Part shown: in pieces, positions 11,315 to 63,587 of the stretch
How the letters are laid out: each line of letters starts with the position of its first letter
How positions within the stretch are numbered: the stretch's first letter is position 1
Assembly (NCBI GenBank): GCA_041659045.1
Contig: JBAZZB010000001.1
Coordinates: forward strand, 70,111-134,110
Source: Patescibacteria group bacterium
Lineage (GTDB): Bacteria > Patescibacteriota > Patescibacteriia > SG8-24 > DYFX01
Reading direction: 5' to 3'
DNA length: 64,000 nucleotides
Translations under genes and position numbers: made by a program
Notes under the pieces: generated by a model
What the model was told of the DNA's origin: nothing
Seen by the model: only the letters and a program-made list of their open reading frames with translations
Databases searched by the model: none

Positions 11315-11713
11315 TCAGTTGGGCGGCGTGGGCAGGAGCTCGGCCTCGGTCAGCTCGCCCACGGCCACCATCTGCAGGAGCCGCACGAAGCCGCGCATGT
11401 GCAGCTCCGACTCGCTCATGTTCCGGGCCATGCGGGTGAGCAGGCCGGAGAGATCGAAGTTCGCGGTCTGCAGCGCCGGCGTCGCGGCGATCACGTCGCC
11501 GAGGTCCGACCAGAGGTTGGGCGTGGCGTAGATCTTGGCCGAGATGCCGAAGCGCTCGACGGTGGCCATGACCTGCTCGCGCTCGACGTAGCCGGTGGTC
11601 GGGGCCCGCCGCTTGCCCGGGTTCGGGATCAAGTGGTGGTGAGCCCAGGCGAGCCAGGTGACGGTCGTGAGCAACCTGCTTCCGAGAATCTGAACGTTGG
11701 TCTTCAAGAACAT
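11315..11713 (-). CDS. hypothetical protein, strongly GC3-biased (likely horizontally acquired)
   Basis: AAGGAGG RBS then ATG (MFLKTN...); contains a WLAWAHHH His cluster; codon usage very different from the flanking prmC and NTP-transferase genes. Confidence 0.5.
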   Translation of the reverse strand: MFLKTNVQILGSRLLTTVTWLAWAHHHLIPNPGKRRAPTTGYVEREQVMATVERFGISAKIYATPNLWSDLGDVIAATPALQTANFDLSGLLTRMARNMSESELHMRGFVRLLQMVAVGELTEAELLPTPPN

Positions 11714-11758
11714 CCTCCTTGTAGGATGGCGGAATTTCACCCTACTTTTTGAAAGGTG

Positions 11759-14168: not shown

Positions 14169-16196
14169 ATGCAGTGGATCACTCCACAGATGCTGGCTCT
14201 GTACGCGGGGGTTGCCTTCTTGGCACTCCTGATCCTGCCATCCATTCGGGTCATCGGACCTACGGAGGTTGGTCTCGTGACCAAACGCTTCGGCTTCAAG
14301 GAGCTGCCTGACGAGAATCCCATCGCCTTCAAGGGCGAGGCGGGGTTCCAGTCGGATCTGCTCCTGGCCGGATGGCACTTCAAGCTCTGGATCGTCTACG
14401 GCGTCCAGAAGTTCCCCTGGGTACAGGTGCCGGCGGGACAGATCGGTGTCGTCGTCGCCCAGCTCGGGCAGGCGCTGCCACCCGGCGCGAAGTCCGCGGC
14501 CTACAAGCAGGCGTTCGGCAACTTCACCGATCCTGCGGCGTTCGTGCAGCATGGCGGCCAGAAAGGCGCCCAGCGCCATCTGCTCATGCCCGGCACGTCG
14601 CTGCCGATCCATCCCGCGGCCTTCATGGTCATCACGAAGGAACGCGTCTACGGACTTCCGATCTCGCCGGAGCTCGAGCGCAAGGCCGGCAAGAACGGCC
14701 TGCGTCCTGAGGTCTTCGGCCTCGAGGCCACGCAGCTCGATCTCGTCCAGATCGGACCGGTGAAGGACAAGGAAGGCAAAGACACCGACATGATCGGTAT
14801 CGTGACCGCCCTCGAAGGCGATCCGCTGCCGCCGACCGACATCGCTTGCCGCCTCGGCGGCTTCACCGATCTCGGCACGATGATGCAGGGCGCCGACTGC
14901 AAGGACAGCGACCTCAGCGAGGCGTTGCTCGGCAGCCAGAACAAGCAGCACAACAACTACCAGAACTTCCAGGCGTTCCTCGACGCCGGCGGCAAGATCG
15001 GCGTCCAGCACGACCCACTCCTCTCCGGAGCGTACGCGCTGAACCCGTTCCTCGTCCGCGTCGAGCGCGTGCCGATGCTGGTCGTGAACCAGGGCGAGGT
15101 CGCGGTCGTGAAGGCCTTCGTCGGCCTGATGACCGAGGACGTCTCCGGCGCCGGGTACAAGCACGGCTCGCTCGTGCGCCCCGGCCGCCGCGGCATCTGG
15201 GAGGAGCCCCTCCGCACCGGCAAGTACGCGCTCAACCCGCGCTGCTACCAGGTCGAGATCGTGCCGACGGCGATCCTCACGCTCAACTGGGCGGAGGCCG
15301 TCTCCAAGGCGCACAACTTCGACTCGGGGCTGAGCCAGATCGACGCCAAGAGCCGTGAGGGCTTCGAGTTCGCCATCGACCTGCAGGTCCAGATCCACGT
15401 GCCTGACACCAACGCCTCGCGCGTGATCGCCGCGGTCGGGACGATGCACAACCTGGTCAACGAGGTCCTGCAGGCGGCGGTGGGCAACCACTTCCGCGAC
15501 AAGCTGCAGGGGCTCCCGGCCATCAAGTTCATCGAGACCCGCCAGGAGATCCAGGTCGAGGCGTTCGCCCACATCAAGCAGGAGCTGGCCAAGTATGATG
15601 TCGAGACACGCGGCGTCTACATCCAGGACGTCGTCCAGCCCAAGGCGCTGATCGACGTGCTCACGGAGCGCGAGATCGCGAACCAGAAGATCGCGACCTA
15701 CAAGAAGGAGCAGGAGGCCGAGGAGACGCGCGTCGCGATGGAGCAGGCGAAGGGCAAGGCCGACATGCAGGCCAAGCTCGCGCAGTCCACGGTGCAGGTC
15801 GACATCGAGACCAACAACGCCAACGCCCTCAGGGCCAAGGCGGGCGGCGAGTCGAACTACATCGAGACGGTCGGCGCCGCCGAGGCCGCCAAGATCAAGG
15901 CGCGCGGTCTCGCGGAGGCCGCCGGCTACCAGGCGCAGAAGGATGCGATCGGCCCGCAGGCGACCGCCATCGTCAACGCCATCCAGGCCATCGCCGACGG
16001 CAAGGTCAACATCATGCCCGAGGTGCTCGTGGTCGGCGGCGGAGGCGGCGCGTTCGAAGCGCTCGCCAGCGTCGTCACCCAGGCGGCTCGCTCCGGCAAC
16101 GTGCCCGGCCTCGGCAAGGCCCAGCCCGTCGCTTCGGCAGCGCCGCTCGAGAGCGGCAGCAACGGCAAGTCGCAGAGCGGCACACTCAACGGCTAG
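14169..16196 (+). CDS. SPFH/band-7 domain protein, flotillin-like (YqiK/FloT-type) with long coiled-coil tail; high-GC3 foreign-looking gene
   Basis: N-terminal TM segment, SPFH-like core, then an EA-rich coiled coil ([37 protein letters not shown]... [20 protein letters not shown]) and a GGGGG tail; about 68% GC versus about 57% in neighbouring genes. Confidence 0.65.
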
Positions 16197-16276: not shown

Positions 16277-16648
16277 ATGCCGTACCAACTCAGCGTCCTC
16301 TTGGTCATCTTCTTGGCCTGCTCAGGTCCTAACTCCACGGGCCTGTCCACGACAACCTCGGAGCATGGCGAATCGATCGTTCAGTGCCTGACACGCAAGG
16401 AGGTGCGCCTCTACGGTGCGTCGTGGTGCAATTTCTGCCAGGAACAGCTCCTTCTTTTTGGCGACGATGTGGCCGGTCTTCCCTATACGGACTGCGATCC
16501 AAAGGGGGAGCTGGACTTCAGAGAAACTTGTACGGAGCAAGGCGTGCCGTACGGAACGATTATCCCCGTATGGATTTTCAAAGACGGTTCGCGTCTCTAC
16601 GGCGTGCGCCATCCAGACGTGATCGCCGTCGTCGCAGACTGTCCCTAG
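16277..16648 (+). CDS. secreted thioredoxin-fold lipoprotein (CxxC)
   Basis: AGGAGG RBS; signal peptide with lipobox ([10 protein letters not shown]); [14 protein letters not shown] thioredoxin/glutaredoxin-like CxxC motif. Confidence 0.55.
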
Positions 16649-16671: not shown

Positions 16672-16712
16672 CTGCAAAAATAATACGCCCGCCATCAGAG
16701 TGACAGCGGGCG
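16669..16712 (-). terminator. terminator after the RNA ligase gene (minus strand)
   Basis: cgcccgc ... gcgggcg stem; tattatttttgcag follows on the minus strand. Confidence 0.45.
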
Positions 16713-16718
16713 AGCGTC

Positions 16719-17798
16719 TCATCCGTAGTCGCGGACGAGCTTGTACCAGTTCGGTTCCTTTCGTCCGGAGTGGAGGATGAAGATCGCTCCGCGCAGATGC
16801 CCGGGCACCTCCTGCTCCACCCAGGCGGCGAATGCCTTGCGGGATTCGCAACCCTTGGCGCGCTCCAGGTGAGAGAGCGTCTCGAGACGCAAGACTTCGA
16901 CCTTGGTGTCGATCTCCGCGACGATGCGATCCGCATCGATGCGAACCTCTTCGGTCACTTCGGCGACGAGCTTCAGGTACTTCTCCTTGCCGCCCGAGAC
17001 GAGTGCCTCCACGATGTTGGGCGTGGAGATGTCCCAGACGTTTCGACTCAGGGCGCAGTAGGCCTGACCCTTGAGCTTCACGCGCAGACCGTTGGCGAAC
17101 AGGAGGACGAATCCTTCCTGATCGGCCGGCAGCGCCTTGGCGGTGGCGAAGGCCTCCTCGAACGAGGAGAACTCGTACACCTTGGGCAGCCGCGCGCCGA
17201 TCGCCTTCGCGATCTCGACGACTTCGTTCCACGGCAACTCCTCGCCGGTGACCCGGTGACGAAGTCCGAGGAGCACGAGCCCTTCGTAGTCGTAGGTGAT
17301 GACCGAGAGAGCGAACCCTCCGGCCGTCTCGTGCTGCTTCGGGTACACGATCTCGAAGATCGGGGTGTAGCCTTCGGGCAGCGCCTCGAGTCGGAGCCGA
17401 TGCAGCATCTCGGTACCACGAAGCGCTTGCTTCGTATCGAAGCTACCGCGCGTCGCGATCCGTGCTTCGCCGTGCTCGTCGCGATACATCGTGCCGAGCG
17501 TGCCGTCGACCTTCTCGAACGCCTTGAAGGGCAGATCGGGGAGATCGGCGAACTGCGTCGACGACGGGTGGTTGCCGACGTTCGAGAACTTGTCGAAGGG
17601 GCGAGAAGCGATCGACCAGTCACGCGTGTCGATGATCAGGCCGCGACTGACGCGCAGGACGTCATCCCACGTACTCGTGGTCTCGCACTTCTCGGTGTAG
17701 TTGAACAGAACCAGTGGGCCCTGCTTCTTCACCGTGATCAGGTTCTCGTAGCGGGGGAAGAGCGTACCGTCTCGGTACAGCTCGATCACCTTGAGCAT
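16719..17798 (-). CDS. ATP-dependent RNA ligase, T4 Rnl1 (gp63)-like family; high-GC3 foreign-looking gene
   Basis: Nucleotidyltransferase motif I FEKVDGTLG (KxDG); GLIIDTRDWSIASRPFDKFSNVGNHP parallels T4 Rnl1 GIMFEMDG...IASRPMEKFFNLNENP; FEIVYP and a later GFVLLFANG...KLK motif. Start at M31 (GGAGG RBS); the upstream extension in the track is probably not translated. Confidence 0.65.
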   Translation of the reverse strand: MLKVIELYRDGTLFPRYENLITVKKQGPLVLFNYTEKCETTSTWDDVLRVSRGLIIDTRDWSIASRPFDKFSNVGNHPSSTQFADLPDLPFKAFEKVDGTLGTMYRDEHGEARIATRGSFDTKQALRGTEMLHRLRLEALPEGYTPIFEIVYPKQHETAGGFALSVITYDYEGLVLLGLRHRVTGEELPWNEVVEIAKAIGARLPKVYEFSSFEEAFATAKALPADQEGFVLLFANGLRVKLKGQAYCALSRNVWDISTPNIVEALVSGGKEKYLKLVAEVTEEVRIDADRIVAEIDTKVEVLRLETLSHLERAKGCESRKAFAAWVEQEVPGHLRGAIFILHSGRKEPNWYKLVRDYG

Positions 17799-17897
17799 GA
17801 GGGCCTCCAGCGGGTTGGGGGGGTACAGAAGCGGTGTCGATCGGAATGAGCGACCAGCTAAGGTACCCGATTTTAAGGCTTTTGTCAATATTCCCGC

Positions 17898-17926
17898 TTG
17901 ACAGCCTCGAGGATCCTCCCTATACT
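17898..17926 (+). promoter_or_regulatory. sigma70 consensus promoter for the rpsB-tsf operon
   Basis: TTGACA (17898-17903), exactly 17-nt spacer, TATACT (17921-17926); about 100-nt leader before the rpsB ATG. Confidence 0.55.
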
Positions 17927-18031: not shown

Positions 18032-18793
18032 ATGTACGAGATTCCCGATCTTCTTGAGTTTCTCAAGACGGGCGCCCACTTCGGCCACCAGGTCTCGAAG
18101 TGGCACCCGAAAATGAAGCCGTTTATCTTCGGTTCGCGCAACGGCATTCACATCATCGACTTGGAGCAGACCGTCGTGAAGTTGAAAGAAGCGCTCGACA
18201 CCGCGCGCGACATGACCGCCAAGGGCGGCGTGATCGTCTTCCTCGGCACCAAGCGCCAAGCTGCGCCGATCGTTGAGAAGTACGCCAAGGCCTGCGGTGC
18301 TCCGTACATCACGACCCGCTGGCTCGGAGGCACGTTCACGAACTTCCCGGAACTCTCGAAGCTCATCAAAAAGCTCAACGAGTACCGCATGAAGCGCGAC
18401 ACGGGCGGCTTCGACAAGTACACGAAGAAGGAACGCGTTGTCATTGATCGCGAGATTGAAGACATGGAGCGCAAGGTCGGCGGCATCGCGCCTCTCACCA
18501 AGCTTCCGGAAGCGATCTTCGTGATCGACGCCAAGCACGAGAAAACGGCCGTTGAAGAATCGCGCGCCAAGAAGATCCCGATCTTCGGCCTGATCGACTC
18601 GAACATCAACCCGGAAGACATCACCTACGGCATTCCGGCCAACGACGACGCTGTGAAGTCCATCGAACTCTTCACACGTCTCTTCTCCGAAGCTGTGGCC
18701 GAAGGTCGCAAGATCTACGAGAAGAACGCGGCTGCCAAGAAGGTTGAAGCTGCGAAGGTGTCCGAAGAGCCGACTCGCGTCATCACCGCGTAA
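18032..18793 (+). CDS. rpsB: 30S ribosomal protein S2
   Basis: LLEFLKTGAHFGHQVSKWHPKMKPFIFGSRNGIHIIDLEQT...VIDAKHE...GLIDSNINPEDITYGIPANDD. Confidence 0.95.
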   Translation: MYEIPDLLEFLKTGAHFGHQVSKWHPKMKPFIFGSRNGIHIIDLEQTVVKLKEALDTARDMTAKGGVIVFLGTKRQAAPIVEKYAKACGAPYITTRWLGGTFTNFPELSKLIKKLNEYRMKRDTGGFDKYTKKERVVIDREIEDMERKVGGIAPLTKLPEAIFVIDAKHEKTAVEESRAKKIPIFGLIDSNINPEDITYGIPANDDAVKSIELFTRLFSEAVAEGRKIYEKNAAAKKVEAAKVSEEPTRVITA

Positions 18794-20817: not shown

Positions 20818-21824
20818 TCCGCGTTGCCATTAACGGTTTCGGTCGCATCGGTCGCAACACCTTCAAAGCCGCTTTCGGACGTTTGAAAAATTTGGAATTC
20901 GTCGCGGTCAACGATCTGACCGACACAAAAACGCTCGCGCATCTTTTGAAGCACGACACCAACTACGGCGCGTACGAGAAGGAAGTGACGTACGACGAAA
21001 AAAATCTCTACATCGACGGAAAGAAGCTCATCGTCACCGCCGAAAAGGATCCGACGAAACTTCCGTGGAAGGATCTCAAAATCGATGTCGTCATCGAGTC
21101 GACCGGACGCTTCACGGATGAGAAGGGCGCGGGTCAACATCTCACCGCCGGCGCCAAGCGCGTCGTGCTTTCGGCGCCCGCCAAAGGCGGCGAAATTCCA
21201 ACGTACGTTCTCGGCGTGAACGGCCAGGACTACAAGGGAAAGTCGAACATCATCAACAACGCTTCGTGCACCACCAACTGCATCGCGCCCGTGGCGGCCG
21301 TCATGCATTCCAAGTTCGGCGTGAAGAAGGCACTCATGACCACGATTCACAGCTACACCGCCGACCAGGTGCTTCAGGACGGCCCGCACAAGGATCTCCG
21401 CCGCGCCCGCGCCGCCGCCTGCAACATGGTGCCGACCTCGACCGGTGCGGCTATTGCCGTCACCGAAACGATCCCCGAACTCAAAGGCCTCTTCGACGGC
21501 CTCTCGGTGCGCGTGCCGACCTCCGTCGTTTCGATGTCGGATTTCACGTTCGTGCTCGGTCGCAAAACAACGGTTGAAGAAGTGAACAAGGCGATCAAAG
21601 CCGCCTGCGCCACCAAGCGCTTCGAAGGCATCATGACGTGGACCGAAGAGGAGCTCGTTTCCTCCGACTTCATTAAAAACTCTTACTCCTCGATCGTTGA
21701 TCTCAATCTGACGCAGGTTGTGGGCGGTGACCTCGTGAAGGTCGTGGCTTGGTACGACAATGAGTGGGGATATTCCTGCCGCCTCGGCGAGATGGTTGAA
21801 CGCGTCGGCAACTCCATCAAGTAA
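20814..21824 (+). CDS. gap: glyceraldehyde-3-phosphate dehydrogenase
   Basis: MIRVAINGFGRIGRN; active-site SNASCTTNCIAP; WYDNEWGYS. Confidence 0.95.
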   Translation: MIRVAINGFGRIGRNTFKAAFGRLKNLEFVAVNDLTDTKTLAHLLKHDTNYGAYEKEVTYDEKNLYIDGKKLIVTAEKDPTKLPWKDLKIDVVIESTGRFTDEKGAGQHLTAGAKRVVLSAPAKGGEIPTYVLGVNGQDYKGKSNIINNASCTTNCIAPVAAVMHSKFGVKKALMTTIHSYTADQVLQDGPHKDLRRARAAACNMVPTSTGAAIAVTETIPELKGLFDGLSVRVPTSVVSMSDFTFVLGRKTTVEEVNKAIKAACATKRFEGIMTWTEEELVSSDFIKNSYSSIVDLNLTQVVGGDLVKVVAWYDNEWGYSCRLGEMVERVGNSIK

Positions 21825-22762
21825 TGTCCGGCAAGTACTCGCGCCCGGTCTACGTCCTCGATCTTCCGTGGCAGATCTTTGATCTTGCCATTCTTACGCT
21901 GTTGGTTTTTTTCTGGTCGGCGTTTTTGTACGGTTGGACGTTGGGCGGCGCGCTCGGTATCGCAATCGCGGCATCTGCTGCACTTGGTTTCACGACGATC
22001 GCCTACGGATCGTTTGTTGAGCCGAGACGCTTGCGCGTGCGCCGGATGAACGTGGGGGTGGGGGAGCGCGCAGTCACCGTCGCGTTTCTTTCCGATATCC
22101 ACGTCGGTCCGTACAAAAAAACGTCCTGGGTGCGTCATCTCGTGCGCCGCACGCAGGCGCTCAATCCGGACGTCATTCTTCTGGGCGGCGACTTTCTTTA
22201 CAAGAAAGCGGACGCTCTGCCGTATCTTGAGCCGCTAAAAGAGCTGCGCGCCCCGCTCGGCGTCTACGCGATTCTCGGCAACCACGACGAATGGAAGGCG
22301 CGAAAAGAATCCATCGCCTGGTTTGAACGATCGGCGATTCCGCTTTTGCATAATCGTTCCGTACGCGTCCAAAAGAACGGCGCTTCGATCGTGATTGCTG
22401 GCGCCGAGGATGATTGGTACGGCGAGACGGATCTTGCAGTGGCTCTTCACGACGCTGGCTCGTCGGAACTTTCTCTCGTCATGCTTCACAACCCCGATCT
22501 GGCGACTCCGGCCGCAAAACTCCTTCAGAAAGGTCCCGGGAAGATCGTGTTTTTCTCAGGACACACGCACGGTGGACAAATTCGTTTGCCGTTCATCGGT
22601 TCGATCATGCGGCTCCCGCACTATTTAGGGAGGTATTTCGATCGCGGTCTCTTTTCGTTCGAGGGTGTACCGCTCGTGCTTGGCGCCGGACTCGGCGAAT
22701 CAGGTCCGCGTGCGCGCCTCTTCTGCCCACCGGAGATTGTGCTCGTCGAAGTTCGCTTCTAA
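21824..22762 (+). CDS. membrane-anchored metallophosphoesterase (calcineurin-like)
   Basis: N-terminal TM helices, then AFLSDIHVGP (DxH), ILLGGDFLY (GD), ILGNHDEW (GNHD/E), FFSGHTHGGQ (GHxH). Confidence 0.75.
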   Translation: MSGKYSRPVYVLDLPWQIFDLAILTLLVFFWSAFLYGWTLGGALGIAIAASAALGFTTIAYGSFVEPRRLRVRRMNVGVGERAVTVAFLSDIHVGPYKKTSWVRHLVRRTQALNPDVILLGGDFLYKKADALPYLEPLKELRAPLGVYAILGNHDEWKARKESIAWFERSAIPLLHNRSVRVQKNGASIVIAGAEDDWYGETDLAVALHDAGSSELSLVMLHNPDLATPAAKLLQKGPGKIVFFSGHTHGGQIRLPFIGSIMRLPHYLGRYFDRGLFSFEGVPLVLGAGLGESGPRARLFCPPEIVLVEVRF

Positions 22763-26179: not shown

Positions 26180-27442
26180 ATGCCCACCATTCGCGACATC
26201 AAAGGCCGGGAAATTCTCGACTCTCGCGGTAATCCGACCGTCGAAGTGAAAATGACGCTCTCTGACGGCACGATCGCCAAAGCCTCGGTGCCTTCTGGCG
26301 CCTCGACAGGTTCGCACGAAGCACATGAGATGCGTGATGGCGACAAGCGTCGCTTCGGCGGACTCGGTGTTTTGAAGGCGATCAAGAATGTTGACGGGCC
26401 GATTGCGGACGCTTTGCGTGGTATGGAAGTGCAGGAGCAGAAGAAGCTCGACGCACGCATGCGCGACTTGGACGGCACGCCGAACAAATCAAAACTTGGC
26501 GCCAACGCCATTCTTGGTGTTTCTTTGGCCGCCGCGCGCGCAGGAGCGACCTCGCTTCAGCTCCCGCTCTATCGCTACTTGCGCGACATCTACGATTTGC
26601 CGCGCGAAGACGGCTACAAATTGCCGCTGCCGATGATGAACGTGTTGAACGGTGGCGCGCACGCCAACTGGAGCATCGATTTCCAGGAATGCATCATCAT
26701 TCCGAAACAGAAAAAATTCCGCGACCGCGTTCGATGCGGCGCTGAAATTTTCCACGCCCTTCTCGCGATTCTCAAGGATAAGAAGATGCCGACGGGCGTC
26801 GGTGATGAAGGCGGTTTTGCGCCGAAACTCAAGAAGAACGCGCAAGCCTTCGAACTGATCGCGCTGGCCGTACGCAAGGCGGGTTACAAGCTCGGTCCTG
26901 ATGTCGCCTTTGGCATGGACCCGGCTACTTCCGAATTCTACGACGCGAAAAAGAAAAAATACGTCCTCGCGACCGACGGCCGGAAACTGGATTCCGATGG
27001 CATGGTTAAAATGTGGGCCACCTACGTGAAGCGCTGGCCGTTCCTTTCGATCGAAGACGGCATGGCCGAGGATGACTGGGATGGTTGGAAGCAATTGACC
27101 GACGCGCTCGGCAAGAAGATATCGCTCGTCGGAGACGATTTCTTCGTGACCAACGTTGACCGTCTGCGCATGGGTATTGAACGCGGCGCGGCCAACGCGA
27201 TTCTGATCAAGGTCAACCAAATCGGCACGCTTTCGGAAACGATCGACGCGATTCGTTTGGCGCAGCGCAGCGGCTACAAGGTCGCGATCTCGCACCGTTC
27301 CGGCGAAACCGCCGACACGATGATTGCCGACTTGGCGGTCGCGGTGAACGCAGAGTTCATCAAGACAGGTTCGCTCTCACGCAGCGAGCGTCTTGAAAAG
27401 TATAATCGCTTGATGGAAATCGAGGATGAAGTCGGCGGCTAA
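26180..27442 (+). CDS. eno: enolase
   Basis: [61 protein letters not shown]. Confidence 0.95.
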
Positions 27443-29000
27443 AGAGACAATCCGACCGGTTGTCCTGGCGATCTGCGACGGCTTCGGTTCGGCTCCGGCT
27501 GGGCTGCAAGGCAACGCCGTCTTGATGGCGAGGATGCCGCACTTTTCGGAGCTGTGGGGGAAATACCCGCACACCGATTTGTTTTCGCATGGCCAACACG
27601 TCGGCTTGCCCAAGCATCAGTCCGGCAACTCCGAGGCCGGGCACATGAATATCGGCGCTGGACGCATCATCAAGCAAGACGCTGTCTACATCACCGAAGC
27701 CATCGAAGACGGTATCTTCTTCAAGAACACGGCGTTTCTCGAAGCGCTCAAGCATGTCAAAAAATATCGGACGCGCGTGCATCTCATGGGGCTCATTTCG
27801 GGCGGCAATTCGGCGCACGCCTCGATGGATCATCTCTACGGACTTTTGGAACTCTGCCGCCGCGAAAAAATTGAAGACGTGGCGCTGCATCTGTTCACCG
27901 ACGGACGCGACAGTCCTCGGTTTTCGGCGACCACGCAAATTCACGACATTGAAGCGCGACTTCGTCCCGGCGAAAGAATCGCTTCGATCATGGGGCGATT
28001 TTATCCGATGGATCGCAACCGCAACTGGGAGCGCATTGGTTTGGCGTATCACGCGATCGTGAATGGGGAAGGTCTTGCGGCGGCCAGCGCCGAAGAAGCG
28101 CTTCTGGGCGCGTACAACCGCGGCGAAACCGATGAGTTTCTTTTGCCGACCGTCATCGTCGACAAAGAGCATGTGCCGCACGGCACGGTGCGCGACAACG
28201 ACGCAATTTTCTTCTTCAACTTGCGTTCCGATCGCGCGCGCCAACTCGCCAAGGCTTTTTTGCTTGATGATTTTGAAAAAAGCGTACCGGATGCCTTTAC
28301 GCGCCGCCGCGTGCCGAAAAATACGCGTTTTGTCGCCATGACGGACTTCGGCCCCGATCTGCCGTATATTCTGACCGCCTATCCCAGCCGCGAACTCAAG
28401 AAAACGTTACCGGACGTGCTCAAGGATTTGAAACAATTTTACGTTGCCGAGTCCGAAAAATTTTCGCACATCACGTTTTTCTTCAACGGCGGCTACCCCG
28501 ACCATCATTTTGGCGAGGAACGCCTGAGAATTGAATCGCTGCGCATCCCGCGCTACGACATGCGTCCCGAGATGAAAGCGCTCGAAGTCACGACCGAGGC
28601 GCTCAAGCGCATTCGTTCCGGGAAGTATCACTTCGTCGCCATTAATTTTGCCAATGCCGACATGGTTGGCCATACCGGCAACCTTGAGGCTGCCGTGAAC
28701 GCGCTCGAAGTGCTCGACGATTGTATCGGACGCTTGTGGAAGGAAATTGATGCCAAAGACGGAACGTTTGTTGTGACTTCGGATCACGGCAACGTTGAAT
28801 CGATGATCGATGTCACGACGGGTGCGGTGGATACCGAGCATTCGACGAACCCCGTACCGTTCGTTGTCGCCAATAAAAACCTCAAGGGCGGAAGGGAGTT
28901 GCCGCGTGGAGTTTTGGCTGACGTCGCCCCTACGATCCTGGATATCATGGGAATTCGCCCTCCCGACGAGATGAGCGGACGCTCTTTGCTGGCCGATTGA
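27426..29000 (+). CDS. gpmI: 2,3-bisphosphoglycerate-independent phosphoglycerate mutase, paralog 1
   Basis: Catalytic Ser motif [32 protein letters not shown]-terminal TSDHGNVE. Overlaps the eno 3' end by 17 nt. Confidence 0.85.
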
Positions 29001-29022: not shown

Positions 29023-30600
29023 ATGCCTACACCGAAACCCGTCGTCTTGCTGATTCTTGATGGTTGGGGCGTTGCGCCGCCCGACCAAGGCAACGCGCTG
29101 GCACTCGCCAAGACGCCGAACATGCGCGCTTTGGCTTCGAAATATCCGGCCATGACGCTCCAGTCTTCCGGCGAAGAAGTGGGCCTCATGTGGGGCGAGA
29201 TGGGCAACTCGGAAGTCGGCCATCTTACGATCGGCGCGGGCAAGGTGTATTACCAAAGCTTGCCGCGCATCAATCGCGCGGTTCAGGGAGGGGAGTTCTC
29301 GACGAACCCCGGATTTTTGAAAGCGATCGAGCACGTGAAAAAGAATGGCACAAAGTTGCACTTGCTCGGCTTAGCCTCGATTGGCAACGTCCACGCCTCG
29401 CTTGAGCATTTGCTTGCGCTTCTTGATTTTGCCAAGTCGCAAGAGATAAAAGAAACCTACGTGCACGCTGTGCTCGACGGTCGTGACACGACCTTCAACG
29501 CCGGTATCGACTTCATCACGACCGTCGAAGCGCGTATGAAGAAAAACGGCGTCGGTAAAATCGCCACGCTTTCCGGACGCTACTACGCCATGGACCGCGA
29601 CAATCGCTGGGATCGCGTTGAGAAAGCGTATCGCGCCATGGTTGATGGCGTGTCCGACGCTAAGAACGACGACCCGCTCGCCGCCATTCGCGCTTCATAC
29701 GAAGCGAAAGTTTACGACGAGGAATTTGTTCCGACGGTCATCACGAAAAACGGAGAACCGGTCGCCAAAATCGAAGCGGGCGACGCGGTCATTGTTTTCA
29801 ACTATCGCCCCGATCGCTCGCGCGAAATCACGAAAGCTCTGGTACTGCCGGAGTTCGACAAGTTTGCCCGCCCGCAAATTGCCGATCTCGTGGTTGTCAC
29901 GATGACGGAATACGAAAAAGGACTCCCGGCCGAAGTTGCCTTTCCTCCAGAGCCGATTTCAACGTGCTTGGCGAAAGTCATTTCCGACGCCGGCATGAAG
30001 CAGCTGCACATCGCCGAAACGGAAAAATACGCGCACGTGACGTTCTTTTTGAACGGCATGAAGGAAGATCCGTTCGGCGGCGAAGACCGTGTCATCGTGC
30101 CGTCACCCCAGGTTTCTTCCTACGATCAGAAGCCGGAAATGTCGGCGCCGCAAATTACGGAACGAATCGTGAAAGAGATCGGCGCCGATAAGTACGACCT
30201 CATCGCCGCGAACTTCGCCAACGCCGACATGGTCGGCCACACCGGCAGCCTCGAAGCGACCATCAAGGCCGCTGAATTCGTCGACGTCGCCATCGGAAAA
30301 ATCGCCGCAGCAACGCTCGAAAAAGGCGGTGTCGTCCTTATCACCGCCGACCACGGCAACGCTGAAGAAGTCGTCAATTTGCAAACCGGTTCGATCGACA
30401 AAGAACACTCCACCTACCCCGTACACTTCCTGATCATCGGCCAGCAGTTCGAAGGCATGGCCGGCGAAGCCCAAGAAATGGTCGGCGGTGACCTGAGCCT
30501 CAGCCCGCCGGTGGGAATGCTCTCTGATGTCACCCCAACGATCCTGCGCATCATGGGCATCCCGCAGCCGTCAGACATGACGGGGAGGCCGTTGATTTAA
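29023..30600 (+). CDS. gpmI: 2,3-bisphosphoglycerate-independent phosphoglycerate mutase, paralog 2
   Basis: LILDGWGVAP, EMGNSEVGHLTIGAGK, HLLGLASIGNVHAS, TADHGNAE; about 40% identity to paralog 1 by eye. Confidence 0.85.
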   Translation: MPTPKPVVLLILDGWGVAPPDQGNALALAKTPNMRALASKYPAMTLQSSGEEVGLMWGEMGNSEVGHLTIGAGKVYYQSLPRINRAVQGGEFSTNPGFLKAIEHVKKNGTKLHLLGLASIGNVHASLEHLLALLDFAKSQEIKETYVHAVLDGRDTTFNAGIDFITTVEARMKKNGVGKIATLSGRYYAMDRDNRWDRVEKAYRAMVDGVSDAKNDDPLAAIRASYEAKVYDEEFVPTVITKNGEPVAKIEAGDAVIVFNYRPDRSREITKALVLPEFDKFARPQIADLVVVTMTEYEKGLPAEVAFPPEPISTCLAKVISDAGMKQLHIAETEKYAHVTFFLNGMKEDPFGGEDRVIVPSPQVSSYDQKPEMSAPQITERIVKEIGADKYDLIAANFANADMVGHTGSLEATIKAAEFVDVAIGKIAAATLEKGGVVLITADHGNAEEVVNLQTGSIDKEHSTYPVHFLIIGQQFEGMAGEAQEMVGGDLSLSPPVGMLSDVTPTILRIMGIPQPSDMTGRPLI

Positions 30601-59591: not shown

Positions 59592-59667
59592 GGGTCGGTA
59601 GCTCAGTCGGTAGAGCAACAGCCTTTTAAGCTGATGGTCCCGGGTTCGATCCCCGGCCGACCCACCA
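59592..59667 (+). tRNA. tRNA-Lys (anticodon UUU), CCA encoded
   Basis: Cloverleaf folded by hand: acceptor GGGTCGG/CCGACCC, D arm GCTC-AGTCGGTA-GAGC, anticodon loop CTTTTAA (TTT), T arm CCGGG-TTCGATC-CCCGG, discriminator A, then CCA. Confidence 0.85.
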
Positions 59668-61259: not shown

Positions 61260-61366
61260 GCCCACATCGTAACCTTTACGATGGGCGATTGACAATCGGT
61301 TTTTTTCTTGATGGAGTGTGCGCAGGTCATTTCGACCGCGCTAACCCTTCACCGAGGAGACATCCC

Positions 61367-62938
61367 ATGCCGAAGCTCGTAAAAGCGACGCTTGTCATGA
61401 GCGACCACCACCTCGGCGAGGGGAAGCCTAAGCTCGAGGATTTTCCGTCTGAGAACGAAAAGGCATATCTCGAGATGCTCGAGGCGCACTTGCGCATCAT
61501 CGGTCCGGACAGTGAATACGTGCACGTGATCGGTGGCGACTGGCTCGATCACCACGCGGTTGAATTCGAGGGCCGGTACGGAATTTTTCCGACGGAAGAA
61601 GCCGCGCTTGCCAAGACGCAAGCGATCATCAACGCGCACCGCGCGCACTTCGATGGCTTGGGCCAGCTGGCCGGATGCTATCCGTCGCTCGTCTTTCGAA
61701 TCGTCATCGGCAATCACGATCTCGACCTCTCGTGGGAGAGTGTGCAGTCGATGATTCGCGCCGCGCTCGTTCCTGCGGAAGAAGCGCACCGCGTGACGTT
61801 TCATCGCGAAGTACGCATCGCCGAGTCAGTGTTGTTCTGTCATGGCGACCAGTTCGATCCGTTTTCGGCGAATCCGCCGGAAGAGGAAACGTTCAAGGAC
61901 GACGTGATGATCAGCCGCAAGGTTATGCTGCTCATGCTGCTGCTTTCGCTTGTGCTCTCCGGTGCGCTGACGGGCGTCATGTTCGCCATCTTGCCGTATA
62001 CGTTCGCGGGTATCGCCGTCGGCAGCATCTTTTCTTTCTTCGTGCTGTTCCTCATGTTCCGTTGGATCGCCGGACACCTGGCGTTTCGTTGGGGGAGCGC
62101 GAAAAGAGTCTTGAACGTGCCGATCGCTTCGCACATGAACGCCGGGCTCGGCACGAAGCTCAAGAAGTGGTTCTTTCACGGGATTGGTCGGCGCGTCGAT
62201 CACGGCGACGAGTGGATTCTCGGTGTCGCTGAAAAGTGGTACGCCTTGCCGATTCTCTTGCCGATGATCGCGCTTGAAGTCATTGCGCTCAAGTTCTTCT
62301 ATCTGTTCCGGCGCCCGCGCGAGCGATTCAATCCGAGCTTGATGCTCGACTTGCTTGCTTCGACGATGCACGCCGATCGCATTGAGAAAGAGCTGAACGC
62401 GTTTTTGGCGGAACGTCCCGAAGTGTGCCACTTGATCGCGGGGCATACTCACGACGGCAAGATGGTTACGGTTGAGAACGGTGACCGCACGGTCATCTAT
62501 TACAACTCCGGAACGGCAATCCGTCAGATGCGCACCTTCAAGCCTGAAGTGCGTGCCGTAACGGCTTGGCCGAAGGTTGAAACGTTTTTCCGACGCGTGC
62601 TGTACTACTGGCTGCACGCGCCTTGGAAGGCGGTGGGATCAACGCTGGCATACGCCTTCTTTCCGGTCGCGATCTTCATGCTGCCGGAGCTGCCTGTCCT
62701 CACGACGCTCCGTTGGCCGATCGCGTTCGTCGCGCTCTTCCTTCTGCTGTGGTGGCAATTCGCCGCCGAGTATCGAGAGGGCCACTTCTTCCGCTTCACG
62801 CCTCCGGAAGTGCTCGAGTACGACGATGGTTCGGTGCGCGTACGTATTCTGCAATACGATCATGAAACCCGGCGCTTCCTTCTTCTGACCGGAGAAGATG
62901 CTTCGTGGGATCATTACACGGAAGGTTTAGTCGGTTGA
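61367..62938 (+). CDS. membrane-embedded metallophosphoesterase (catalytic domain interrupted by a multi-TM insertion)
   Basis: GAGGAG RBS; MSDHHLGEG (DxH), IGGDWLDHH (GD), VIGNHDLDL (GNHD), LFCHGDQFD, then about 170 aa of TM helices, then IAGHTHDG (GHxH), then further TM helices. Confidence 0.6.
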   Translation: MPKLVKATLVMSDHHLGEGKPKLEDFPSENEKAYLEMLEAHLRIIGPDSEYVHVIGGDWLDHHAVEFEGRYGIFPTEEAALAKTQAIINAHRAHFDGLGQLAGCYPSLVFRIVIGNHDLDLSWESVQSMIRAALVPAEEAHRVTFHREVRIAESVLFCHGDQFDPFSANPPEEETFKDDVMISRKVMLLMLLLSLVLSGALTGVMFAILPYTFAGIAVGSIFSFFVLFLMFRWIAGHLAFRWGSAKRVLNVPIASHMNAGLGTKLKKWFFHGIGRRVDHGDEWILGVAEKWYALPILLPMIALEVIALKFFYLFRRPRERFNPSLMLDLLASTMHADRIEKELNAFLAERPEVCHLIAGHTHDGKMVTVENGDRTVIYYNSGTAIRQMRTFKPEVRAVTAWPKVETFFRRVLYYWLHAPWKAVGSTLAYAFFPVAIFMLPELPVLTTLRWPIAFVALFLLLWWQFAAEYREGHFFRFTPPEVLEYDDGSVRVRILQYDHETRRFLLLTGEDASWDHYTEGLVG

Positions 62939-63017
62939 CGCTCTCGCCACATCGTTCACGAACGACGTGGCGGGGGCTTTTCTTTTTGGTCTTTTCCGGC
63001 TACCCTTGGCACAGACT

Positions 63018-63587
63018 ATGAAAAACGAAAGCTTTCTTCTGCACCTGAAGGTCGAACACGAAACGTTCGACGTGGCGCGTCGCGAAATTATTGGCGCGGC
63101 ATCCAAAGCGCAAAGCGCTTCCAAGCGCGCTATTTTTGCCGTGCTGCGCGAAGATGAGGCTGGTGCCAAGGCGCTTTTGGCCGAGGCAGAGGACGCTTTT
63201 GAGACGATTCGAGCGAAAGTGGAAAGGAATTCCCGCTTGGCACATGAAGGCTCGTATCGAGCTGCGCTCGAGGAGTACGCGGAAGCGCGGTTCATTGCGC
63301 AGATCGCGTGGAAAGGCGAAACGGTCGCTCTTGAAGGATTGGATGAAGAGACGCAAATCGCCGGACTCTGTGATGCGGTTGGCGAGACCGTGCGGCTCAT
63401 GACGTATTACGTCACTTCCGGTCGCGACGCTGAAGCGCGCGAACTGAAAACGCGGCTCGATCGCCTTGTTGCTGGACTCGACACGATGGAATACTCCGGC
63501 TATCTTCGCACGAAATACGATCAGGCGCGCTCGCATTATCGGAAAGCCGAAGACATCTTGTATGAGCTTTCCCTTCGCGGACGGTAA
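63018..63587 (+). CDS. hypothetical all-helical protein
   Basis: 190-aa ORF; no recognisable motif. Confidence 0.4.
   Translation: MKNESFLLHLKVEHETFDVARREIIGAASKAQSASKRAIFAVLREDEAGAKALLAEAEDAFETIRAKVERNSRLAHEGSYRAALEEYAEARFIAQIAWKGETVALEGLDEETQIAGLCDAVGETVRLMTYYVTSGRDAEARELKTRLDRLVAGLDTMEYSGYLRTKYDQARSHYRKAEDILYELSLRGR

What the first reader, a model, noticed from the sequence alone, without database searches (positions are those of the whole stretch)
16719..17798. T4 Rnl1-like ATP-dependent RNA ligase of apparently foreign origin
The protein carries the covalent nucleotidyltransferase motif I (FEKVDGTLG, KxDG). An upstream segment (IASRPFDKFSNVGNHP) parallels T4 gp63/Rnl1 (IASRPMEKFFNLNENP) closely, and FEIVYP parallels FEFVAP.

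Rnl1-type ligases are known in phage and in bacterial tRNA-repair/anti-restriction contexts. Here the gene stands alone with strongly GC3-biased codon usage, next to other foreign-looking genes (flotillin, a thioredoxin lipoprotein). No Pnkp/Hen1, PrrC-like anticodon nuclease or other RNA-repair partner is visible in the window.
Basis: partly seen in the sequence, partly recalled or inferred. Interest (0 to 1): 0.6.

Follow-up and report, generated by a model that had tools for sequence, protein, structure and literature searches.

The report
Orphan T4-type RNA ligase in Patescibacteria
The gene is a real, intact relative of phage T4 RNA ligase 1 that a small group of ultra-small (Patescibacteria) bacteria has kept at one fixed chromosomal spot, without the helper enzymes phages place next to it; it is a new member of a known, already annotated enzyme family, not a recent foreign insert.

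Summary
Observation confirmed. A 359-aa ORF on the minus strand (16719-17798) carries FEKVDGTLG, IASRPFDKFSNVGNHP and FEIVYP.

It passes Pfam RNA_lig_T4_1 (60 bits against a 28.3 cut-off). Its best solved-structure match is T4 Rnl1. All catalytic residues of T4 Rnl1 are kept. Its helical C-terminal domain is a remote homologue of the T4 Rnl1 C-domain (profile-profile E 4e-7, controls negative).

"Foreign origin" is not supported as a recent event:
- Four related genomes (54-71% identical ligase; RpsB 91-92% in the three compared) hold the gene in the same slot, between rpsB-tsf and rpmE-prfA.
- Its high GC3 (0.84) matches rpsB and L25, and three orthologues measured share it.
- dN/dS is 0.43-0.51.

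"No partner" is confirmed. About 40 window ORFs give no Pnkp, Hen1, RtcB or PrrC. In 80 viral loci the homologue sits near a P-loop kinase (43), a metallophosphoesterase (41) or a cREC domain (27). None of these occurs in the window or in 80 cellular loci.

Best reading: a domesticated stand-alone ligase that seals 3'-OH/5'-PO4 breaks in RNA loops, probably tRNA. NCBI already calls it "RNA ligase". Modest interest.

The parts
16719..17798 (-). Rnl1-family RNA ligase CDS, 359 aa, including the stop codon
   Evidence: ORF and translation. Pfam PF09511 at 60.4 bits. T4 Rnl1 is the best PDB match by sequence and by fold. Identical to an NCBI protein named 'MAG: RNA ligase [Patescibacteria group bacterium]'.
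17049..17717 (-). Adenylyltransferase (NTase) domain with the Rnl1-type N-terminal sub-module, residues ~28-250
   Evidence: hhalign of N-domains against T4-like sequences: 99.9% probability, E 7.5e-36. AF2 model pLDDT 93.6. R52, K70 and F71 correspond to T4 R54, K75 and F76 (PMC6379707).
17493..17519 (-). Motif I, FEKVDGTLG; K96 is the predicted AMP-accepting lysine
   Evidence: Aligned to T4 K99-E-D-G. K96, D98 and G99 are invariant in 66 homologues.
17565..17612 (-). IASRPFDKFSNVGNHP; K70 and F71 are the predicted ATP gamma-phosphate and adenine contacts
   Evidence: Roles of T4 K75 and F76 are taken from PMC6379707. S72 replaces the F found in 85% of the family.
17340..17357 (-). Motif III, FEIVYP (E149)
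   Evidence: Aligned to T4 FEFVAP, E159. E149 is conserved in at least 95% of the family.
17067..17117 (-). Motif IV EGFVLL (E228, G229) and motif V RVKLKG (K241, K243)
   Evidence: Aligned to T4 E227/G228 and K240/K242. Invariant or nearly invariant.
16722..17045 (-). All-helical C-terminal domain, residues 252-359, the fast-evolving part
   Evidence: AF2 on the domain alone gives pLDDT 95 and five helices. Profile-profile against T4-like C-domains: 92.6% probability, E 4.4e-7, score 40.4 against at most 14.2 in 30 shuffles. Orthologue identity is 43-56% here against 65-77% in the N-domain.
16686..16712 (-). Terminator-like hairpin (12 bp, 8 G-C) plus T-run just after the ligase stop
16277..16648 (+). 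Convergent 123-aa thioredoxin-like lipoprotein; a syntenic neighbour, not judged a functional partner
   Evidence: PDB 3kp8 Trx domain, E 7e-11. Present next to the ligase in L001, L003 and L090, absent in L010.
14169..16196 (+). SPFH/Band_7 gene, an insertion into the same variable slot found only in this window
   Evidence: Pfam Band_7, E 2.4e-18. No tblastn hit in L001, L003, L010 or L090. GC3 0.92.
18032..18793 (+). rpsB, divergent from the ligase; one boundary of the conserved slot
   Evidence: Promoter-like site at 17898-17926.

Best explanation
The gene encodes an intact, functional ATP-dependent RNA ligase of the T4 Rnl1 family. Its predicted mechanism has three steps. K96 attacks ATP to form ligase-AMP. 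AMP is passed to a 5'-PO4 RNA end. A 3'-OH then attacks to seal the break. This mechanism is inferred from conserved catalytic residues and fold; it is not shown here.

The gene is a fixed chromosomal gene of a genus- or family-level Patescibacteria clade. It is transcribed on its own, between the rpsB-tsf and rpmE-prfA translation gene clusters. It is not a recent insert.

Its divergent helical C-domain is homologous to the domain that directs T4 Rnl1 to tRNA anticodon loops. The most likely job is therefore resealing single-strand breaks in RNA stem-loops, most probably tRNA.

No end-healing kinase or phosphoesterase is linked to it. It probably acts directly on 3'-OH/5'-PO4 breaks of the kind left by metal-dependent RNases. 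Any healing activity would have to be encoded elsewhere in the genome.
For: Family and catalytic integrity:
- Pfam 60.4 bits against a 28.3 cut-off; PDB T4 Rnl1 E 6.6e-12; phrog_562 E 2e-48.
- AF2 model pLDDT 93.6, with T4 Rnl1 as the top Foldseek hit (E 1.5e-17), ahead of Trl1, Rnl3 and Rnl5.
- T4 R54/K75/F76/K99/D101/G102/E159/E227/G228/K240/K242/Y246 correspond to R52/K70/F71/K96/D98/G99/E149/E228/G229/K241/K243/Y247. T4 K119 corresponds to R117.
- C-domain homology to T4: E 4.4e-7, with negative shuffle controls.

Fixed, selected gene:
- Same slot in L001 (71%), L003 (60%), L010 (59%) and L090 (54%).
- dN/dS 0.43-0.51.
- SD-ATG start and own terminator.
- GC3 and CAI resemble rpsB and L25.

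Orphan status:
- No Pnkp, Hen1, RtcB, RlaP, Thg1 or PrrC among about 40 window ORFs.
- HMMs of the phage-linked kinase, Metallophos, cREC and second ligase find nothing in the window or in the syntenic loci at E<=1.

Plausibility of direct sealing:
- Rnl1 ligases are described as tailored to loop breaks (PMC4408790).
- The T4 C-domain confers tRNA specificity (PMC6379707, citing Wang 2007).
- The Toprim tRNase AriB leaves 3'-OH/5'-PO4 ends on tRNA-Lys(UUU) (PMC12409363).
Against: - No biochemistry exists for this protein or any cellular orthologue.
- Only 64 kb of a contig of at least 646 kb was examined, so healing enzymes or a nuclease may lie elsewhere.
- The protein scores far below the NCBIfam equivalog cut-off for T4 RnlA (61 against 242 bits).
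- C-domain similarity to T4 is not detectable by single-sequence searches or by Foldseek on the isolated domain. Transferring tRNA specificity from T4 is therefore weak.
- dN/dS is several times that of the neighbours (0.04-0.16). This could mean relaxed constraint.
- S72, T282 and K315 depart from strongly conserved family residues.
Confidence: 0.6

Rival explanations
1. Classical heal-and-seal pathway with unlinked partners. The ligase works as in T4, after a polynucleotide kinase/phosphatase encoded elsewhere in the genome converts 2',3'-cyclic-PO4/5'-OH ends into ligatable ends.
For: In viral loci the homologue sits near an AAA_33 kinase (43/80), a Metallophos (41/80) or a cREC domain (27/80). 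This shows the family normally cooperates with healing enzymes. Only about 10% of the contig was examined (646 kb).
Against: None of these is in the 64 kb or in up to 21 kb around four orthologues. None is near 80 cellular homologues. The window's two Metallophos proteins do not match the phage-linked Metallophos HMM even at E<=1.
Confidence: 0.22
2. Recent horizontal acquisition. The gene would be a phage or mobile-element passenger with atypical composition, sitting in a small island with the SPFH gene.
For: GC3 z = +2.06. The family is abundant in phages: 1862 INPHARED records and at least 532 IMG/VR loci. The slot between rpsB and rpmE is variable: an SPFH gene here, and extra 380-aa and 133-aa genes in L090. 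More distant homologues lie among transposases (L006).
Against: The gene is syntenic in five genomes that have diverged to 54-71% ligase identity. The orthologues share the GC3 excess. The codon bias points towards the host's own highly expressed genes. No integrase, transposase or phage gene is in the window. The best phage identity is only 33-35%.
Confidence: 0.06
3. Housekeeping RNA processing rather than damage repair. The ligase would rejoin or circularise cellular RNAs, for example after removal of intervening sequences from the rRNA or tRNA of CPR bacteria.
For: The gene lies among translation genes (S2, EF-Ts, L31, RF1, PrmC, L25). Its codon usage resembles that of highly expressed genes. 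CPR rRNA genes often carry insertion sequences (PMC11270868, abstract only).
Against: I found the gene only in a narrow clade. None of the top 80 GTDB loci is labelled Patescibacteria apart from the mis-binned L010. It therefore cannot be a general CPR mechanism. Its fast evolution is atypical of core processing enzymes. No rRNA or intron-bearing tRNA is in the window.
Confidence: 0.07
4. A decaying or functionless remnant that still looks like a ligase.
For: dN/dS is 3-10 times that of the neighbours, and C-domain identity is only 43-56%. Several family-conserved residues are substituted.
Against: The reading frame is intact in all five genomes. Every catalytic residue is kept. dN/dS is below 1 with low dS. 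The AF2 model is confident. An SD sequence and a terminator are present.
Confidence: 0.05

Closest known systems
Bacteriophage T4 RNA ligase 1 (gp63, RnlA; PDB 2c5u, 5tt6, 9do4)
   Same: The two-domain layout is collinear: residues 28-347 here align to T4 31-349. The lysine nucleotidyltransferase motifs and the Rnl1-specific R/K/F sub-module are the same. A helical C-domain is appended at the same point and is remotely homologous. T4 Rnl1 is the top structural match.
   Different: Identity is only about 22-26%. The protein is far below the TIGR02308 equivalog cut-off. It is about 10 residues shorter between motifs Ia and III. Its C-domain is not recognisable by single-sequence methods. It is chromosomal in a bacterium rather than in a phage. 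No Pnkp is linked and no PrrC-type nuclease is in view. No tail-fibre role is conceivable here.
Phage and jumbo-phage RNA-repair cassettes (Rnl1/Rnl2 with Pnk-HAD or other phosphoesterases, cREC, RlaP, Thg1; Iyer et al. 2021, PMC7824862)
   Same: The ligase family is the same (phrog_562). The nearest viral homologues, at 30-35% identity, sit in such cassettes.
   Different: The window, its syntenic relatives and 80 cellular loci lack the kinase, Metallophos, cREC and second ligase. RlaP appears near only 6 of about 87 loci and not here.
Fungal and plant tRNA ligase Trl1-LIG (Rnl6)
   Same: It shares the Rnl1-like adenylyltransferase domain and is the second-best structural match (E about 1e-10 to 1e-11).
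   Different: Trl1 has a different C-domain, fused kinase and CPD domains, and requires a 2'-PO4 (PMC6379707). None of these features is present here.
Bacterial Pnkp/Hen1 (Rnl4) and RtcB-RtcA repair operons
   Same: These are cellular RNA-repair ligases thought to counter ribotoxins.
   Different: They differ in ligase clade or chemistry and are operonic with healing or modifying partners. No Hen1, Pnkp, RtcA or RtcB is in the window.

Membership tests
Rnl1 (T4 RnlA) family of ATP-dependent RNA ligases | Covalent nucleotidyltransferase motifs I, III, IV and V, with the motif I lysine | tested here: met
   K96/D98/G99, E149, E228/G229 and K241/K243 align to T4 K99/D101/G102, E159, E227/G228 and K240/K242. 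They are invariant or at least 95% conserved in the family.
Rnl1 (T4 RnlA) family of ATP-dependent RNA ligases | Rnl1-type N-terminal sub-module, with Arg and Lys contacting the ATP gamma-phosphate and Phe on the adenine (T4 R54, K75, F76; PMC6379707) | tested here: met
   R52, K70 and F71 are invariant. N-domain profile-profile E 7.5e-36.
Rnl1 (T4 RnlA) family of ATP-dependent RNA ligases | The clade-defining all-helical C-terminal domain of T4 Rnl1 (families are defined by the appended domain; PMC6379707) | tested here: met
   C-domain-only profile-profile: 92.6% probability, E 4.4e-7, 95 columns, collinear; 30 shuffled and 1 reversed control score at most 14.2 against 40.4. Caveat: Foldseek on the isolated domain, phmmer, hmmscan and hhalign against the single T4 sequence are all negative. 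The homology is therefore remote.
Rnl1 (T4 RnlA) family of ATP-dependent RNA ligases | Pfam PF09511 gathering threshold | tested here: met
   60.4 bits against 28.3.
Rnl1 (T4 RnlA) family of ATP-dependent RNA ligases | NCBIfam TIGR02308 equivalog cut-off (same function as T4 RnlA) | tested here: not met
   61.3 bits against 242.25; the match covers only residues 32-261. The protein is a family member, not a certified equivalog.
Rnl1 (T4 RnlA) family of ATP-dependent RNA ligases | ATP-dependent self-adenylylation and sealing of 3'-OH/5'-PO4 RNA ends | not testable with these tools
   Needs biochemistry.
T4-type tRNA restriction-repair system (PrrC / Pnkp / Rnl1) | A linked polynucleotide kinase-phosphatase or other end-healing enzyme | tested here: not met
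   No such Pfam family among about 40 window ORFs. HMMs of the phage-linked AAA_33 kinase, Metallophos and cREC give no hit at E<=1 in the six-frame window or in L001, L003, L010 and L090. The rest of the genome was not seen.
T4-type tRNA restriction-repair system (PrrC / Pnkp / Rnl1) | A cognate anticodon nuclease (PrrC/RloC type) or an R-M context | tested here: not met
   No Pfam hit of that kind in the window, and the ligase has no PADLOC hit. ORFs under 100 aa were not scanned.
RlaP-associated 5'-phosphate RNA ligase systems (Burroughs and Aravind, via PMC12776372) | A PF10127 RlaP nucleotidyltransferase in the neighbourhood | tested here: not met
   RlaP-like ORFs lie near homologues in 6 loci (L004, L028, L033, L038, L040, L054) but none in the window or its syntenic relatives.
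Rnl6 (fungal Trl1-LIG) | Trl1-type C-domain with fused KIN and CPD domains | tested here: not met
   Trl1 ranks below T4 Rnl1 by fold (E 4e-11 against 1.5e-17). The protein is 359 aa with no extra domains.
   The C-terminus is all-helical. DNA ligases appear only at E>=1e-5 and TM about 0.3, over the NTase core alone.

The most novel reading that the evidence does not exclude
A phage-derived Rnl1 ligase has been domesticated by a Patescibacteria lineage as a stand-alone, well-expressed housekeeping enzyme. It would directly reseal 3'-OH/5'-PO4 cuts in tRNA or rRNA made by metal-dependent RNases such as PIN or Toprim toxins from host, phage or self, with no end healing. More broadly, the hundreds of orphan cellular Rnl1 genes (0 of 80 with phage-type healing partners) would form a distinct seal-only RNA repair strategy, with the fast-evolving C-domain tracking target RNAs.
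Probability: 0.12. Interest if true: 0.55.

Novelty: new member of a known kind. Interest (0 to 1): 0.3.

Why it matters
Rnl1-type ligases are understood almost entirely from phage T4, where the enzyme needs Pnkp to undo PrrC damage. I found no report of the physiological role of cellular Rnl1 genes that lack healing partners.

A reduced-genome bacterium that keeps such a gene at a fixed locus next to its translation genes is a tractable case for asking two questions. What does a seal-only RNA ligase repair? What does its variable C-domain recognise?

For annotation, the result corrects a tempting inference. High GC3 here marks host-like, expression-type codon bias, not foreign DNA.

Tried and rejected
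- The look-up of encoding contigs found no record of the window's own protein, so orthologues were used for context.
- The isolated C-domain gave nothing with Foldseek/PDB, hhalign against the single T4 sequence, PHROGs hmmscan or phmmer of the T4 C-domain against 120 homologues. Only profile-profile comparison with 26 T4-like sequences from IMG/VR resolved it.
- PADLOC gave no hit for the ligase, so no known defence-system membership was found for it.
- Blind clustering of neighbours over 87 cellular and other loci gave mostly antisense shadow ORFs of the ligase itself. The only recurrent real partner was RlaP, in 6 loci.
- Two key papers were not held: Burroughs and Aravind 2016 (PMC5062991) and Wang et al. 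2007 (PMC1924901).
- I considered the window's two Metallophos proteins (21824-22762, 61289-62938) as healing enzymes. They do not match the phage-linked Metallophos HMM, and the first is syntenic with glycolysis genes.
- I considered the tRNA-Lys(UUU) gene at 59592 as a link to T4 biology. It lies 42 kb away and is the only tRNA in the window, so I treat it as chance.
- I considered a prfA-linked ribosome-rescue role like RtcB-PrfH. The gene here is housekeeping prfA with prmC, and the ligase is not operonic with it.
Full report
**1. What is there**

The finding's coordinates hold a 359-codon ORF on the minus strand. The ATG is at 17796-17798 and the stop at 16719-16721. A GGAGG lies 5 nt upstream of the ATG. 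An alternative TTG start at 17888 is not supported by orthologue lengths of 358-370 aa.

The three quoted peptides are all present:
- FEKVDGTLG, residues 94-102.
- IASRPFDKFSNVGNHP, residues 63-78.
- FEIVYP, residues 148-153.

The gene is divergent from rpsB (18032-18793). It is convergent with a 123-aa gene (16277-16648). A 12-bp G+C-rich hairpin with a T-run follows its stop directly at 16712-16686. It therefore looks monocistronic.

The identical protein is already in NCBI as "MAG: RNA ligase [Patescibacteria group bacterium]" on a 646-kb contig.

**2. Family assignment**

Sequence evidence:
- Pfam RNA_lig_T4_1 (PF09511): 60.4 bits against a gathering score of 28.3, residues 51-247.
- The only solved structures hit by sequence are the three T4 Rnl1 entries, E 7e-12 to 4e-11.
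- PHROG 562 matches residues 24-348 at E 2e-48. T4 gp63 itself belongs to this PHROG at E 5e-157.
- PADLOC has no hit.
- The NCBIfam equivalog model TIGR02308 scores 61 bits against a cut-off of 242. The protein is a family member but not a certified functional equivalent of T4 RnlA.

Structural evidence:
- An AlphaFold2 model built on 66 homologues is confident (pLDDT 93.6, pTM 0.83).
- Its best Foldseek matches in the PDB are T4 Rnl1 (E 1.5e-17, whole-length alignment).
- Fungal Trl1-LIG follows (about 1e-10 to 1e-11), then archaeal Rnl3, then Rnl5. DNA ligases match only over the nucleotidyltransferase core.

Catalytic residues:
- I confirmed that my T4 Rnl1 sequence is identical to chain 2c5u_A.
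- hhalign of the family profile against it gives 99.6% probability and E 8.7e-24. Residues 28-347 align collinearly with T4 31-349.
- T4 R54, K75, F76, K99, D101, G102, E159, E227, G228, K240, K242 and Y246 correspond to R52, K70, F71, K96, D98, G99, E149, E228, G229, K241, K243 and Y247.
- T4 K119 is R117 here.
- All are invariant or at least 95% conserved across 66 to 116 homologues.
- According to PMC6379707, R54 and K75 contact the ATP gamma-phosphate and F76 contacts the adenine.

**3. The C-terminal domain**

RNA ligase clades are defined by the domain appended to the NTase core (PMC6379707, PMC4408790). I therefore tested the C-domain separately.

The isolated domain (residues 252-359) folds confidently into five helices (pLDDT 95). 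Four tests were negative:
- Foldseek finds nothing in the PDB at E<3.
- hhalign against the single T4 sequence is not significant.
- The domain alone does not hit phrog_562, although the T4 C-domain alone does at 2e-34.
- phmmer of the T4 C-domain against 120 homologues finds nothing.

I then fetched 42 T4-like Rnl1 loci from IMG/VR and used 25 of them plus T4 Rnl1 itself. I compared C-domain profile with C-domain profile. The result was 92.6% probability, E 4.4e-7, 95 collinear columns and a score of 40.4. Thirty column-shuffled controls and one reversed control scored at most 14.2.

Both groups share an RK-x-[FY]-A motif: R320/K321/F323/A324 here and R318/K319/Y321/A322 in T4.

The clade-defining domain is therefore present but very divergent.

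**4. Is it foreign?**

Synteny says it is not recent.
- Orthologues at 71% (CP129476.1, a 1.17-Mb Patescibacteria genome; L001), 60% (L003), 59% (L010) and 54% (L090) all sit between rpsB-tsf and rpmE-prfA-NTP_transferase-prmC.
- L010 is labelled Gammaproteobacteria but is evidently mis-binned.
- The three genomes compared are close relatives: RpsB 91-92%, PrfA 92-95%, FtsW 87-94%.
- The ligase was therefore in their common ancestor.

Codon usage says the same.
- GC3 is indeed high: 0.84, z = +2.06 against 62 other ORFs.
- rpsB (0.81), L25 (0.82) and rpmE (0.80) are equally high.
- The ligase's codon adaptation to the window's translation and glycolysis genes ranks 5th of 57 non-reference genes.
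- The three orthologues measured are also at the top of their local GC3 range: 0.88 against 0.80 +/- 0.04, and 0.91 against 0.77 +/- 0.06.
- The bias therefore runs towards host-type, expression-linked usage.

The gene evolves fast.
- dN is 0.21-0.34 and dN/dS is 0.43-0.51. The neighbours show 0.04-0.16. Synonymous divergence is low, as in rpsB.
- The C-domain is the fastest part: 43-56% identity against 65-77% in the N-domain.

The slot itself is variable.
- The 675-aa SPFH/Band_7 gene (14169-16196, GC3 0.92) is found only in this window.
- L090 has other extra genes.
- L010 lacks the thioredoxin-like gene.

Outside this clade:
- The next homologues, at 41-42% identity, are in unrelated cellular contexts (L004) or transposase-rich ones (L006).
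- Homologues at 35-39% lie on contigs that look like phage and jumbo-phage genomes.
- 1862 INPHARED phages and at least 532 IMG/VR loci carry homologues, none above 35% identical.
- At least 499 loci in GTDB species genomes carry one, mostly Chloroflexota, Planctomycetota, Cyanobacteria and Alphaproteobacteria.

An ancient acquisition is plausible. A recent one is not.

**5. Partners**

Pfam scans of about 40 ORFs across the 64 kb found ordinary housekeeping genes:
- sigma-70, FtsW and a UvrD-type helicase;
- L25, PrmC, RF1, L31, S2 and EF-Ts;
- glycolysis genes, Tgt, QueA, Fpg and MetK.

They found no Pnkp, HD-Pnk, Hen1, RtcA/B, RlaP, Thg1 or PrrC. gyrB was identified by synteny with L001.

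To make the test data-driven, I clustered the neighbours of the 80 best viral homologues. Four recurrent families emerged:
- an AAA_33 P-loop kinase in 43 of 80 loci, at a median distance of about 0.3 kb;
- a Metallophos phosphoesterase in 41 of 80;
- a cREC "cyclic-phosphate processing" domain in 27 of 80;
- a second PF09414 RNA ligase in 12 of 80.

This matches the phage RNA-repair cassettes described in PMC7824862.

HMMs of these clusters find nothing at E<=1 in the six-frame window or in the syntenic loci. They also find nothing at E<=1e-5 in any of the 80 cellular-binned loci. Caveat: the HMMs come from viral sequences and may miss distant cellular analogues.

Among cellular loci the only recurrent neighbour is RlaP, in 6 loci. 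RlaP was recently shown to add one or two nucleotides to RNA 3'-OH ends (PMC12776372). It is absent here.

**6. Mechanism and function**

Shown:
- An intact Rnl1-family fold and active site.
- Purifying selection.
- Fixed chromosomal position.
- An independent transcription unit.
- No linked healing enzyme.

Inferred:
- The three-step lysyl-AMP ligase chemistry on 3'-OH/5'-PO4 RNA ends.
- A preference for breaks in RNA stem-loops such as tRNA anticodon loops, by homology of the C-domain with the one that gives T4 Rnl1 its tRNA specificity.
- Action without healing, on ends left by metal-dependent RNases. The Toprim tRNase AriB leaves exactly such ends on tRNA-Lys(UUU) (PMC12409363).

The main rival is that healing enzymes exist elsewhere in the genome. 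Minor rivals are a housekeeping RNA-processing role, a decaying gene, and recent transfer.

**7. Novelty and verdict**

This is a correctly spotted Rnl1-family gene that public annotation already names. Three points go beyond the annotation:
- It is vertically fixed in a Patescibacteria clade rather than foreign.
- It is an orphan, like the other 80 cellular homologues sampled and unlike the phage homologues.
- Its specificity domain is highly divergent and fast-evolving.

I rate it a new member of a known kind, of modest interest.

Noticed in passing
window 14169-16196 (+): A 675-aa SPFH/Band_7 (flotillin-like) gene with GC3 0.92 is inserted between rpmE and the thioredoxin-like gene. It has no counterpart in the four syntenic relatives, so the rpsB-rpmE gap acts as a small variable slot.
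   Followed up: partly
L133-L212 (IMG/VR) versus L010-L089 (GTDB genomes): Homologues of this ligase on viral contigs are accompanied within 6 kb by an AAA_33 kinase (43/80), a Metallophos (41/80), a cREC domain (27/80) or a second RNA ligase (12/80). On cellular-binned contigs the count is 0/80 for each. Cellular Rnl1-like genes thus seem generally orphaned from the phage healing cassette.
   Followed up: partly
window 62967-63587 (+): A Translin-family protein (Pfam PF01997, E 7e-11), which to my recollection (not checked here) is uncommon in bacteria; translin-TRAX is recalled as an RNase. No link to the ligase was tested.
   Followed up: no
window 59592-59667 (+): The only tRNA gene in the window is tRNA-Lys(UUU), the species T4 Rnl1 repairs. 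It lies 42 kb from the ligase, so I treat this as coincidence.
   Followed up: no
L006 1557-2327 and L007 13513-14307: Thg1-family (3'-5' nucleotidyltransferase, tRNA 5'-end repair) genes lie 4-8 kb from ligase homologues, in one transposase-rich cellular contig and in one jumbo-phage-like contig.
   Followed up: no
window 11315-11740 (-): A 141-aa ORF with no Pfam hit has extreme GC3 (0.93). It is conserved between the NTP-transferase gene and prmC in the relatives (35-77% identity), and its orthologues are also the most GC3-rich local genes.
   Followed up: no
window 16770-17849 (+): A 359-aa antisense ORF shadows the whole ligase gene, and similar shadows recur in 62 homologous loci. I interpret this as a by-product of GC3-rich coding sequence, not as a gene.
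   Followed up: partly
L010 (CAZKMF010000138.1): This contig is labelled 'uncultured Gammaproteobacteria bacterium' but is gene-for-gene syntenic with the Patescibacteria loci (RpsB 91%, PrfA 95%). It is probably mis-binned.
   Followed up: partly
window 27426-29000 and 29023-30600 (+): Two ORFs of 524 and 525 aa lie in tandem. The second is a cofactor-independent phosphoglycerate mutase by Pfam; the first was not scanned and is called iPGM only from its position after enolase, where L001 has an iPGM.
   Followed up: no
window 16277-16648 (+): The 123-aa neighbour is thioredoxin-like. It matches the Trx domain of bacterial VKOR homologues (PDB 3kp8, E 7e-11) and has a CxxC motif and a lipobox. 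It is syntenic with the ligase in three relatives but missing in L010.
   Followed up: partly
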